Positions 26,585 through 30,095 of a stretch of 64,000 nt of DNA are shown one piece after another (positions within the stretch are counted from its first letter, which is position 1; each line of letters opens with the position of its first letter). The notes under the pieces were generated by a model. The model searched no databases and was not told where the DNA came from. It saw nothing but the letters and a program-made list of their open reading frames with translations. The stretch lies in IMG/VR virus record IMGVR_UViG_2974715202_000001. One strand, 5' to 3'. Both the position numbers and the translations under genes were made by a program. The stretch is from a virus.

Positions 26585-27274
<690 letters not shown>

Positions 27275-27284
27275 GGAGAATTTC

Positions 27285-27338
27285 ATGGCTAGTTTTGATT
27301 TTTCTGATTTAACAGCGGGGGGGGGTTGTAATGGCTAA
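27285..27338 (+). CDS. 17-aa leader ORF (MASFDFSDLTAGGGCNG) containing a G9 tract
   Basis: Strong RBS AAGGAG before ATG 27285; overlaps the start of the baseplate J gene. Confidence 0.5.
   Translation: MASFDFSDLTAGGGCNG
27317..27325 (+). repeat. G9 homopolymer
   Basis: Counted directly in the sequence. Confidence 0.95.
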
Positions 27339-28584
27339 TTATGACTACATAGTAGATACTGGAGTCATAGTCGCCGATACTGCTGATATTCTGAAGGACG
27401 TTGAAGCGGAATTCAGGGCAGCCCTCGGCGCCAATATCAACCTGGCGGCCTCAACGCCCCAGGGAACTCTGGTCGCGGCTGAAACCATTGCGCGTTCTAG
27501 CGTGATGAGGAATGAAGCTCGCATCGCCAATACCATCAACCCAAACGTGTCTTTCGGAACGTTCCTGGACGCCATCTGTGCGCTGATGGGAATCGAGCGC
27601 GGCTCTGATCTTTCGACGTTCGGCTATGGCGTCCAGGTGACCGGCCGCAGCCAGACCCGAATTTCCACCGGGTCGCGTGTGCAGACTCCGGCCGGAGCGA
27701 TTTTCACGGTCATGAGTGACGTTCTGATTCCGGCAACCGGAGTCGCCACCATCGACGTAAAATCGCAGGACTATGGAAACATCCCTCTTCCCGTAGGAAA
27801 TCTTATCATCATCGATGGAACCATCGGTTGGGCCGGGGCGAAAGTCATCGCTTCAACTCGCGTCGATCCTGGCAGCCGCCAAATGACCGATGCAGAATTG
27901 AAGAATGCTCGCGTCAATCGTCTGGCGATCCAAGGCCGCAACTCGACTTTGGCCATTAAAGCGTATGTCAGCGCCGTGCCCAACGTTACCTCGGTCAACG
28001 TCATCGAAAACAACACCGGCACTGTTCAAGTTGTCAACGGCGTATCATTCACCCTTCCGTATGCGGTCTGGGTCTGCGTCGCCGGAAATCCGGATAAGCA
28101 GGCTGTCGCAGATGCTCTGTGGGCGGCCCACAACGGCGGGACTCCCTGGGACTATGGCGCGGCCGACAACGGCGTCCCTGTGGATGGGCCTACTGGCGTT
28201 CCTGTTCGCGATCCGGCATCTGGTCGGAAGTATGTGGTGAAGTGGACTACTCCGATCATGTATGACGGATATGTAAACGTCACCGTTCAGCAAGGCTCTT
28301 CCTCGGTTGCTCCGGAAGCAATCCAAAACGCAGTTGTAAATTACGCCCAGGGGAAAGTGGAGGGCGAAGAGGGATTGGTCGTCGGCGCGAGTCTGTCTGC
28401 CTTTGAAGTGGCCGGGGCCATCGCTCGCGAGATTCCCGGAATCTACATTAAACTATGCCAGGTGGCTTGCGTCCCGGCTGGATCGCCGGCCCCGGCCCCC
28501 GGCGACTTCTCGCCTGAGTACGTCATGAGCGCATTCGGTCAGGCTACCATTTCGGTTGGCAACGTTAGGGTGACTTTCGTATGA
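27331..28584 (+). CDS. Baseplate wedge protein J-like
   Basis: STPQG.L+, A.G.FLD.+C.L.GI.R, D.EL+..R and VIEN motifs. Confidence 0.85.
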   Translation: MANYDYIVDTGVIVADTADILKDVEAEFRAALGANINLAASTPQGTLVAAETIARSSVMRNEARIANTINPNVSFGTFLDAICALMGIERGSDLSTFGYGVQVTGRSQTRISTGSRVQTPAGAIFTVMSDVLIPATGVATIDVKSQDYGNIPLPVGNLIIIDGTIGWAGAKVIASTRVDPGSRQMTDAELKNARVNRLAIQGRNSTLAIKAYVSAVPNVTSVNVIENNTGTVQVVNGVSFTLPYAVWVCVAGNPDKQAVADALWAAHNGGTPWDYGAADNGVPVDGPTGVPVRDPASGRKYVVKWTTPIMYDGYVNVTVQQGSSSVAPEAIQNAVVNYAQGKVEGEEGLVVGASLSAFEVAGAIAREIPGIYIKLCQVACVPAGSPAPAPGDFSPEYVMSAFGQATISVGNVRVTFV

Positions 28585-30095
28585 CTCTGCCCGCGTACAA
28601 TTCTGATATTCAACAGGCGCTGAAGTGGCTCCATAACCAGGCCCCTGGGATCACCGGCTTGGTTCAGCGAAAAGCTCAATGGTATGATCGTTTCAGCCGT
28701 CAATTTTGGGTGAACTGGGAGCGCGACGTTTTCAATTTGAAGACTGCCAACCCGTTCGGCCTTATGGTGTGGTGCATCATCCTCGGCACGCCTTCGAAAG
28801 GCTTCGGCCTGTATCCAAAAAACAGCTCTTGGGCGTTCGGTCGGCTGCGCCAGAACTTCGTTTATAGCGGGAATCAGGTTCCGCCGCCTGCAGACGCATC
28901 GCCGGGCGGCAACTTCTACGGTGGCGGCAATGCCGAAATCCTCAACTTGGACGAAATCAGGAAAGTGCTTCAGCTAAGATATGTAGCGCTGATTTCGAAC
29001 GGCTCGATTGCATATATCAATCGCATGCTTCGCTACATATTCAACGATGATGAGCCGTGGGACGAGGCGACCGGGTTGTACTTCTATCTCATGGACTCAA
29101 CCGGCGAGAATGGACCTGTGGAGAACTTGGCCATATATCGGAAAGATTGGGAAGGAATGGTGTTATTGTCCAGTTCGCCCAGAACGAACCACGTACTGAC
29201 ATCGACCCCTGCCAGCGACGCCGATTGGCCGGGTGTCGATCCGGCCGCGAGCGGCCGTCCGGTAACGGTCGAAACGGCGTCCGCTACGGCCCCGGACGGC
29301 TCCGCTACGGTGTGCAAGCTTACTAAGCCGGCCGGGAGTACCGCCTACGTCTCCGCGCCGATAGATGGGCCGCTGGGGTCCGGTAGCACTGTAACGTTTT
29401 CGTTCTTCGCGAAAGCCGGATCCACCCGTTTCATTGCAATTCAGTCGGCTGCCGATTTCCCCAGTCGAGCCGATGCCGTTTTCGACCTGGATTCCGGGAA
29501 CGTGATCAGCGATCAGATGTTGGACAGCAGCGTGGTAAGTGCCCGAATGATTCGTCTGGAAAATGGCTGGTGGCGTTGCGTTCTCACGACCAAGACCGTC
29601 AGCTCTTCGTTCCGCGCTGCTTACGTCGCTCCGGCAGAAACCAACTTCAGCTGGATCGATTCGAATTCCAGCGCGGCGATTGACGTGCTTATCTGGGGCG
29701 CTCAGATCGAACTGGGTGATACTCCAACTGGATACTTGGAGACTACCGGGGCGCCCGTGACCATCACCGATTATGCTTTGCAGAACGCCCAGACCGGAAC
29801 AGTCAAGTTCACGCAGCCCCTTCCGACAGGAGTAGAAGCGTATTGGACTGGAGACTGGAAAGGCGGGTCTGCGACCGAGCCGGCCAGATTCGCAGTAGGG
29901 GATGGGACTCAAGATACATTCAATCTGTCCAGCCCTGCATACATCGGCCTACCCACTAGTGGGGCGTTCAAGCTAGAATACAGAGTTGGTCCGGCGCTTA
30001 ATTTGTCGCCGCAATTGATCAACCTCATGAATGACCGGGCGGTCGGTATCATGCCGACTTGCGCCGGTTGCGATGTAAAAGTCATTCAGGAGTAA
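28581..30095 (+). CDS. Baseplate wedge protein (DUF2612-like) with an inserted CBM-like beta-sandwich
   Basis: N-terminal wedge domain; central FSFFAKAG...LENGWWRC...IWGAQIE.G..PTGY. Confidence 0.75.
   Translation: MTLPAYNSDIQQALKWLHNQAPGITGLVQRKAQWYDRFSRQFWVNWERDVFNLKTANPFGLMVWCIILGTPSKGFGLYPKNSSWAFGRLRQNFVYSGNQVPPPADASPGGNFYGGGNAEILNLDEIRKVLQLRYVALISNGSIAYINRMLRYIFNDDEPWDEATGLYFYLMDSTGENGPVENLAIYRKDWEGMVLLSSSPRTNHVLTSTPASDADWPGVDPAASGRPVTVETASATAPDGSATVCKLTKPAGSTAYVSAPIDGPLGSGSTVTFSFFAKAGSTRFIAIQSAADFPSRADAVFDLDSGNVISDQMLDSSVVSARMIRLENGWWRCVLTTKTVSSSFRAAYVAPAETNFSWIDSNSSAAIDVLIWGAQIELGDTPTGYLETTGAPVTITDYALQNAQTGTVKFTQPLPTGVEAYWTGDWKGGSATEPARFAVGDGTQDTFNLSSPAYIGLPTSGAFKLEYRVGPALNLSPQLINLMNDRAVGIMPTCAGCDVKVIQE

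What the first reader, a model, noticed from the sequence alone, without database searches (positions are those of the whole stretch)
27274..27340. G9 tract in a leader ORF that can switch how the baseplate J gene is translated
Seen: a strong RBS (AAGGAG) starts MASFDFSDLTAGGGCNG* across a G9 run just before the J gene, whose only SD-like sequence is the G-run itself. By hand: G8 fuses the leader in frame, giving MASFDFSDLTAGGVV-MANYDY; G9 stops 8 nt inside J; G10 gives a TAATG stop-start junction. All three lengths keep J translatable but change coupling or add a 15-aa N-terminal extension. Inference: a contingency locus tuning baseplate protein amount or form.
Basis: partly seen in the sequence, partly recalled or inferred. 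Interest (0 to 1): 0.65.

Follow-up and report, generated by a model that had tools for sequence, protein, structure and literature searches.

The report
Known variable poly-G before phage wedge gene
The run of nine G's in front of the baseplate wedge gene is real and changes length between and within stocks of these Pseudomonas phages. It has been annotated in this phage group since 2008-2009, and nobody has tested what the switching does.

Summary
The window is a PB1-like Pseudomonas phage (Pbunavirus).

This is PB1 "ORF42A/42B". GenBank marks the tract as a slippage site in PB1. It records G7-9 and G9-10 subpopulations in stocks of LMA2 and LBL3 (Ceyssens et al. 2009).

Among about 251 phage records I found:
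- G9 in about 166 records
- G10 in about 29
- G7 in 5 to 9
- G11 in 7
- G8 in 6

G8 and G11 genomes (JG024, SN) do encode the predicted N-extended protein.

- The leader and tract are specific to the genus. In sister genera the spike stop overlaps or abuts the J start.
- The leader is a degenerate 46-bp tandem copy of J's own RBS and start.
- The G-run occupies the RBS position and is predicted to bind the anti-SD strongly.
- Cryo-EM of two G9 phages shows the unextended 417-residue protein.

Verdict: the hypermutable tract is real and already known. The three-state reading is correct. An adaptive role is untested. The scan had flagged this locus before in other Pbunavirus genomes.

The parts
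26609..27274 (+). Tail-tip / baseplate spike gene (221 aa; PB1 ORF41, E217 gp43 equivalent). Its stop TAA is at 27272-27274.
   Evidence: ORF list. Pfam N-terminal spike domain and Phage_spike. Annotated 'baseplate spike' in PB1 RefSeq.
27273..27278 (+). AAGGAG Shine-Dalgarno of the leader ORF, 6 nt before ATG 27285. It overlaps the spike stop codon.
   Evidence: Sequence. Predicted anti-SD duplex -9.1 kcal/mol.
27285..27338 (+). 17-codon leader ORF (PB1 'ORF42A'), MASFDFSDLTAGGGCNG*. It ends 8 nt inside the wedge gene.
   Evidence: Annotated as ORF42A 'ribosome slippage may result in longer product' in PB1 and PA8P1.
27317..27325 (+). G9 homopolymer. It is a hypermutable tract and also the SD-like element of the wedge gene, 5 nt before ATG 27331.
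   Evidence: Lengths of 7-11 occur in relatives. Within-stock heterogeneity is noted in the LMA2 and LBL3 records. Anti-SD duplex -11.6 kcal/mol.
27331..28584 (+). Baseplate wedge gene (417 aa; PB1 ORF42B, E217 gp44, Pa193 gp45; Baseplate_J family). There are 12 copies per baseplate, in the 'triplex' with the next gene's product.
   Evidence: Pfam Baseplate_J. About 95% identical over the full length to PDB 8env/8eon and 9b45 chains. Papers PMC10329688 and PMC11456595.
27273..27364 (+). Two adjacent, degenerate 46-nt repeat units (27273-27318 and 27319-27364). Each is an RBS plus ATGGCTA... plus the first codons. AAGGAGA in unit 1 aligns with GGGGGGG in unit 2.
   Evidence: 23 of 46 positions identical without gaps, against a null of 11.4 +/- 3.0 (fraction at least as high 3e-4). 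The 30-nt core is 18/30 (8e-5). Leader residues 2-6 against J residues 2-6 score 17 by BLOSUM62, reached by 1.2e-4 of six-frame 5-mers.
28581..30095 (+). Second wedge/triplex subunit (504 aa, DUF2612; E217 gp45 equivalent). Given as context only.
   Evidence: Pfam DUF2612. E217 paper.

Best explanation
This is the known length-variable poly-G tract of PB1-like phages.

Origin (inferred). An ancestral 46-bp tandem duplication copied the wedge gene's own ribosome-binding site, start codon and first codons. The upstream copy survives as a strongly initiated 17-codon leader. In the downstream copy the RBS position is now a run of G's, which still works as a strong SD for the real start.

Mechanism. 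The run is 9 G long, so the polymerase slips on it during DNA replication. This is shown by the records for relatives and inferred for this phage. Each gain or loss of one G moves the leader into another frame:
- G9: the leader stops 8 nt inside the wedge gene.
- G7 or G10: the leader stops in a TAATG overlap.
- G8 or G11: the leader fuses in frame and adds 15-16 residues. These residues are a degenerate repeat of the protein's own N-terminus.

The SD-to-ATG distance never changes, so the normal 417-residue protein can be made in every state. The modal state (G9, as here) yields the normal protein found in virions.

Whether the switching is selected as bet-hedging or only tolerated is open. 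I put an adaptive role at about one in four.
For: - The anatomy is as described.
- The same locus is annotated as a slippage site in PB1 and PA8P1.
- GenBank notes 'subpopulations with number of G's varying from 7 to 9' in LMA2 and 'from 9 to 10' in LBL3.
- Survey of about 251 full-coverage phage records: G9 about 166, G10 29, G8 6, G7 5 (plus variants), G11 7. Near-identical isolates from one study differ, for example phiVader and phiMoody G9 against phiHabibi G10.
- Natural G8 and G11 genomes encode the fusion.
- Five sister genera and KLEP17-4 have no leader and no homopolymer. There the spike stop overlaps or abuts the J start.
- The G-run to anti-SD duplex is -11.6 kcal/mol.
- Virion structures of the G9 phages E217 and Pa193 model residues 1-417 and 2-417.
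Against: - No read-level data exist for this particular phage.
- Homopolymer lengths in deposited genomes are error-prone. At least 12 records break at the tract, and two carry assembler duplications ending there.
- An SD role explains keeping about 5-6 G's, not 9.
- The whole 50-nt spacer is more conserved than the flanking genes: 1-2 differences against 10-19% divergence. Only 1 of the 7 mismatched records I opened (PSA09) has an interrupted run, and about 213 others match an uninterrupted run exactly. This degree of constraint is not explained by the model.
- Translation of the leader has never been shown.
Confidence: 0.75

Rival explanations
1. Adaptive contingency locus. Selection maintains the tract so that every lysate contains a minority of phages with N-extended wedge protein or altered wedge dosage. 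This would change baseplate triggering, adsorption or host range as a bet-hedge.
For: - About 213 of some 251 records match an uninterrupted run exactly, and only 1 of the 7 mismatched records opened is interrupted, despite up to 19% divergence of the neighbouring genes.
- It is the only homopolymer of 7 or more in the genome window.
- Both non-J frames close right at the J start, so no state is lethal.
- The extension repeats the protein's conserved N-terminal motif.
- Precedents exist in Fletchervirus and in T2/T4.
Against: - The fusion frame is the rarest, at about 13 of 251 records. G8 (6 records) is much rarer than G10 (29), binomial P about 1e-4, although the records are not independent.
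- Virions of G9 phages show only the short form.
- PA5 truncates the leader 8 codons in and is a viable isolate.
- The wedge protein is not the receptor binder; the tail fibre is.
- No phenotype has ever been linked to the tract.
Confidence: 0.25
2. Programmed slippage at the RNA level (the GenBank annotation's wording). Ribosomes shift +1 on a G9 message or -1 on a G10 message, or RNA polymerase slips on the run. Every infection would then make a fixed small share of the long protein, whatever the DNA length.
For: - PB1, PA8P1, PA11P1, PaP1_EPu-2019 and fHoPae01 records carry 'potential ribosome slippage site'.
- The run is slippery for tRNA-Gly and is itself an internal SD-like pause site.
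- A minor isoform would be invisible in symmetry-averaged cryo-EM maps.
Against: - There is no stimulatory structure. The fold z-score is -0.98 and there is no Rfam match.
- The required direction of shift differs between G9, G10 and G7 genomes, which does not fit one conserved signal.
- DNA-level subpopulations were seen directly.
- No proteomic evidence for a long form from a G9 phage was found in the papers held.
Confidence: 0.12
3. The variation is mostly technical. Homopolymer miscalls and assembler behaviour, rather than biology, create the different lengths in databases.
For: - At least 12 records start or end at the tract.
- HTN4 and USP_1 carry 127-nt and 94-nt duplications that end exactly at it.
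- DL52 has an N beside it.
Against: - Sanger-era genomes already differ: PB1 G9, LBL3 G9, LMA2 G7, SN G11, F8 G11.
- Their authors recorded mixed subpopulations explicitly.
- Lengths of 7-11 recur across many laboratories and sequencing platforms.
Confidence: 0.05

Closest known systems
PB1-like phage ORF42A/ORF42B poly-G tract (GenBank EU716414 PB1, FM201281 LBL3, FM201282 LMA2; Ceyssens et al. 2009, Environ Microbiol 11:2874, as cited in bioRxiv 10.1101/2025.10.21.683753)
   Same: It is the same locus, the same flanks and the same tract. PB1 is 99.4% identical over 2.2 kb and carries G9.
   Different: Nothing substantive differs. This window is another isolate of the same species group. The Ceyssens paper itself could not be read here.
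Hypermutable polyG tracts in receptor-binding protein genes of Campylobacter Fletchervirus phages (described as 7-11 G tracts generating diversity)
   Same: Both are G-runs of 7-11 in a virulent myovirus tail-region gene. In both, the length changes by slippage and populations are mixed.
   Different: There the tracts lie inside receptor-binding genes, switch them on and off, and have a demonstrated host-range phenotype. Here the tract lies in a leader before a structural wedge gene, no state switches the gene off, and no phenotype is known.
Contingency loci in coliphages T2 and T4 (bioRxiv 10.1101/2025.10.21.683753)
   Same: Both are homopolymer repeats in a virulent phage giving reversible frameshifts. 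That preprint names the PB1-like tract as an unstudied precedent.
   Different: Mutation rates and fitness effects were measured there. None have been measured here.
Stop/start translational coupling of the spike and wedge genes in sister genera (Myosmarvirus, Carpasinavirus, Bcepfunavirus, Wifcevirus)
   Same: The gene order is the same. The wedge protein starts with the same conserved motif, M(T)ANY.Y.
   Different: In those genera the spike stop overlaps the wedge start (ATGA or GTGA) or lies 11-13 nt before it, with no leader and no homopolymer. Pbunavirus has 56 extra nucleotides.

Membership tests
Pbunavirus ORF42A/42B poly-G locus | A G-run between the spike gene stop and the wedge (Baseplate_J) gene start, inside a short leader ORF driven by AAGGAG | tested here: met
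   The spacer is identical to PB1's.
Pbunavirus ORF42A/42B poly-G locus | The genome belongs to the PB1-like group | tested here: met
   99.9% identity to phage misfit and 99.4% to PB1 over 2.2 kb. 272 matching records, nearly all Pseudomonas phages.
Contingency locus (hypermutable simple-sequence repeat) | A simple repeat long enough to slip, with length polymorphism between close relatives | tested here: met
   G7, G8, G9, G10 and G11 occur among about 251 records, including near-identical isolates.
Contingency locus (hypermutable simple-sequence repeat) | Length heterogeneity within one population | not testable with these tools
   No reads are available for this phage. Depositors' notes record it for LMA2 (G7-9) and LBL3 (G9-10).
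Contingency locus (hypermutable simple-sequence repeat) | A length change alters the expression or product of a gene | tested here: met
   This is shown at the level of reading frames. There are three leader fates, and the fusion is seen in JG024 and SN. Protein-level effects were not measured.
Contingency locus (hypermutable simple-sequence repeat) | Reversible switching at a raised rate, with a selectable phenotype | not testable with these tools
   No study was found in the library.
Programmed ribosomal frameshift site | A slippery site plus a conserved stimulatory element, with one fixed direction of shift | tested here: not met
   The run is slippery, but there is no significant structure and no Rfam hit. 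The shift needed differs with tract length (+1 for G9, -1 for G10).
Termination-reinitiation coupling | The upstream ORF stops within a few nucleotides of the downstream start, which has an SD | tested here: met
   For G9 the stop is at +6 to +8 of the J start. For G7 and G10 it is TAATG. The SD-like G-run lies 5 nt upstream. Actual reinitiation was not tested.

The most novel reading that the evidence does not exclude
The tract is a true phage contingency locus acting on a structural baseplate protein rather than on a receptor binder. Slippage would seed each lysate with phages whose wedge protein carries a second, degenerate copy of its own N-terminal motif. Incorporating it among the 12 wedge copies would change how readily the baseplate fires, how stable the virion is, or how it is seen by a host defence. 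This would explain why an uninterrupted run and its spacer are conserved across the whole genus.
Probability: 0.2. Interest if true: 0.65.

Novelty: already known. Interest (0 to 1): 0.3.

Why it matters
PB1-like phages are among the most used therapeutic phages against Pseudomonas aeruginosa. Their stocks are therefore genetically mixed at a baseplate gene, and many deposited genomes are mis-assembled or inconsistently annotated at this spot.

If the switch had a phenotype, it would be the first contingency locus known to act on a core baseplate protein rather than on a receptor binder. It would matter for quality control of phage preparations.

As it stands, it is a well-placed and easily tested example of a mechanism that is already recognised in phages.

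Tried and rejected
1. RNA element in the spacer: the fold z-score is -0.98, there is no Rfam match, and no promoter or terminator lies at the locus. Rejected.
2. The leader as a remnant of a gpW/gp25-like gene: it is too short. Sister genera have no gene there, although KLEP17-4 has a 114-aa wedge gene in that position. Rejected in favour of a duplication of the J start.
3. Uncultured variants from metagenomes and IMG/VR: these gave only 1 and 6 loci, all G9 or G7. Too few to add anything.
4. Ceyssens et al. 2009 is not held in the library, so its wording is taken from the GenBank notes and from the 2025 preprint.
5. Papers on JG024, KTN6/KT28, Banzai, evolved cocktail phages and the 2026 Pbunavirus preprint say nothing about the tract.
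6. I did not fold the extended protein. The fused sequences come only from records that the folding tool does not accept, and a single-chain model could not show whether the baseplate accommodates the extension.

Full report
**What is there**

The window is a PB1-like Pseudomonas aeruginosa phage (genus Pbunavirus). A 2.2-kb stretch around the finding is 99.9% identical to phage misfit and 99.4% to PB1. It matches 272 phage records, almost all Pseudomonas phages.

- The spike gene (26609-27274) ends in TAA, which overlaps a consensus AAGGAG (27273-27278).
- Six nucleotides later, ATG 27285 opens a 17-codon ORF, MASFDFSDLTAGGGCNG*.
- This ORF runs through nine G's (27317-27325) and stops at 27336-27338, which is 8 nt inside the next gene.
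- The next gene (27331-28584, 417 aa) is a Baseplate_J-family wedge protein.
- It is about 95% identical over its full length to E217 gp44 and Pa193 gp45, whose structures in the virion are solved (PDB 8env/8eon and 9b45).

**It is already annotated**

- The PB1 GenBank record calls the leader "ORF42A; ribosome slippage may result in longer product". It marks the nine G's as a "potential ribosome slippage site". PA8P1 and several other records copy this.
- The LMA2 record says [quoted passage not shown].
- The LBL3 record says "varying from 9 to 10".
[quoted passage not shown] It cites Ceyssens et al. 2009 and says they were not studied further.
- I could not read the 2009 paper itself.
- No paper held in the library tests the tract's function.

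**Tract length across relatives**

I queried the phage collection with the 24-nt and 13-nt conserved flanks joined by G7, G8, G9 or G10, and counted exact full-length matches. Of about 251 records that cover the site:

| Tract | Records | Examples |
|---|---|---|
| G9 | about 166 | PB1, E217, Pa193, 14-1 |
| G10 | 29, plus 3 with a flank mismatch | phiHabibi, LS1 |
| G11 | 7 | F8, SN, Cisa, WP1, PSA07_PB1 |
| G8 | 6 records, 4 phages | JG024, NH-4, PTLAW2, Epa22 |
| G7 | 5, plus several variants | LMA2, willy, HHBS51_1, RyC23 |

These are records, not independent phages. GenBank and RefSeq duplicates are included.

- Near-identical isolates from single studies differ. For example, phiVader and phiMoody carry G9 and phiHabibi G10; V523 carries G9 and V524 G10.
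- All three reading-frame classes occur. The G9 class is about 68%, the TAATG class (G7/G10) about 15-17%, and the in-frame fusion class (G8/G11) about 5%.
- G8 is much rarer than G10 (binomial P about 1e-4, ignoring relatedness).
- The natural G8 and G11 genomes are annotated with a single 432- or 433-aa ORF.
- Other variants seen:
  - PSA09 has an interrupted run, GGGGTGGGG.
  - R12, 1384 and phiFenriz have one T instead of two after the run.
  - PA5 has lost one T from the T5 run in the leader. Its leader stops after 8 codons, 19 nt before the J start. The phage is nevertheless a viable isolate.

**Technical caveat**

- At least 12 records begin or end at the tract.
- HTN4 and USP_1 carry 127-nt and 94-nt tandem duplications that end exactly at a copy of the tract. 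The 127-nt length fits an untrimmed assembler overlap.
- An earlier follow-up in this scan reached the same conclusion on another genome.
- Part of the database variation may therefore be error.
- However, the Sanger-era genomes already span G7 to G11, and their authors recorded mixed subpopulations.

**Where it came from**

Relatives at about 45-52% wedge-protein identity in other genera lack both leader and homopolymer. These are Serratia MTx, Xylella MATE2, Burkholderia Maja, Escherichia WFC and Salmonella PCSE1. In them the spike stop overlaps the wedge start (ATGA or GTGA) or lies 11-13 nt before it. Their wedge proteins start M(T)ANY.Y, like this one. The extra 56 nt is therefore a Pbunavirus-specific insertion.

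The leader begins MASFDF and the wedge protein begins MANYDY.
- That similarity is reached by 1.2e-4 of all six-frame 5-mers in the window.
- Apart from J itself, no other of the 1893 post-ATG peptides reaches it.
- At the DNA level the two adjacent 46-nt units, 27273-27318 and 27319-27364, match at 23 of 46 positions without gaps. The null is 11.4 +/- 3.0 (P about 3e-4). The 30-nt core matches at 18 of 30 (P about 8e-5).
- F8 gives 22 of 42, and the more divergent E217 clade 17-18 of 42.

The leader is therefore a decayed tandem copy of the wedge gene's own RBS and start. AAGGAGA in the first unit aligns with GGGGGGG in the second, differing only by A-to-G changes. First readers of other Pbunavirus windows had noticed the repeated ATGGCTAATT. 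The statistics above are my own test of that observation.

A 46-nt period is one nucleotide out of frame. A 45-nt period (G8) is the in-frame version of the duplication.

**How it most likely works**

Shown or directly readable:
- The G-run sits 5 nt before ATG 27331. Its predicted duplex with the 16S 3' end is -11.6 kcal/mol. That is stronger than the leader's AAGGAG (-9.1) and stronger than its neighbours (-1.3 to -7.8). The anti-SD sequence is taken from general knowledge.
- The 3' edge of the run is fixed, so changes in length do not move the SD relative to the start. The normal protein can be initiated in every state.
- What does change is the fate of ribosomes loaded at the leader. They terminate 8 nt past the J start (G9), terminate in TAATG (G7/G10), or read into J (G8/G11).

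Virion evidence:
- E217 and Pa193 both have G9 genomes.
- Their wedge protein is modelled from residue 1 or 2 to residue 417, in both conformers of the triplex, at 12 copies per baseplate.
- The modal state therefore gives the unextended protein.

Inferred:
- The length changes arise by replication slippage.
- The leader is translated.
- The G8 and G11 states give mostly extended protein.

**What remains unexplained**

- The 50-nt spacer outside the run differs at only 1-2 positions between clades whose flanking genes differ by 10-19% (binomial P 0.003-0.012, comparisons not independent).
- The run is almost never interrupted.
- An SD role accounts for five or six G's, not nine, and not for the rest of the spacer.
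- This is the best argument that something more than tolerance is at work. It is why I leave about 20-25% for a truly adaptive switch.

Against an adaptive switch:
- The fusion frame is rare.
- PA5's truncated leader is viable.
- The wedge protein is not the receptor binder.
- No reported phenotype exists.

RNA-level programmed slippage, which is the wording in GenBank, is not excluded. It lacks a stimulatory structure, and it would need opposite shift directions in G9 and G10 genomes.

**Verdict**

The mechanics are right; adaptive tuning is untested.
- The feature is already known.

Noticed in passing
L013 (vB_PaeM_HTN4) 423-604; L014 (vB_PaeM_USP_1) 423-570: Two deposited genomes carry tandem duplications of 127 nt and 94 nt. 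Each duplication ends exactly at a copy of the G-run and restarts in the 3' end of the spike gene. These are most likely untrimmed assembler overlaps left inside rotated contigs. In HTN4 this creates a spurious 39-aa 'baseplate protein' CDS.
   Followed up: partly
Phage records pasz2, Pa-H, Pa-A, Pa-G, Wadjak 10/12, Qaehs, PASA16 and others: At least 12 Pbunavirus GenBank records start or end at, or within a few bases of, the poly-G tract. Assemblies of these circularly permuted genomes break there preferentially. The cause could be read heterogeneity or poly-G handling by sequencers and trimmers.
   Followed up: no
window 1-64000: Homopolymers are strongly depleted in this genome. No run of 7 or 8 of any base occurs where a first-order Markov model expects about 12. 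No G or C run exceeds 5 apart from the G9.
   Followed up: partly
window 27300-27304 (the T5 run in the leader) and 27326-27327 (the TT after the G-run): Two further small length or boundary polymorphisms occur in relatives. PA5 has T4 instead of T5, which truncates the leader. R12, 1384 and phiFenriz have a single T after the run, which changes the frame class or the SD spacing by one.
   Followed up: partly
L022 (PSA09) and L024 (DL52): PSA09 is the only record I saw with an interrupted run (GGGGTGGGG). DL52 has an ambiguous N just after a G8 run, which suggests mixed reads in that assembly.
   Followed up: no
Phage records WP1 (106,862 bp, two matching places) and HHBS51_1 (76,435 bp, wedge gene in three pieces): Both records are much longer than the usual 64-67 kb of this genus and have irregular matches to the wedge region. 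They may be concatenated or mis-assembled genomes.
   Followed up: no
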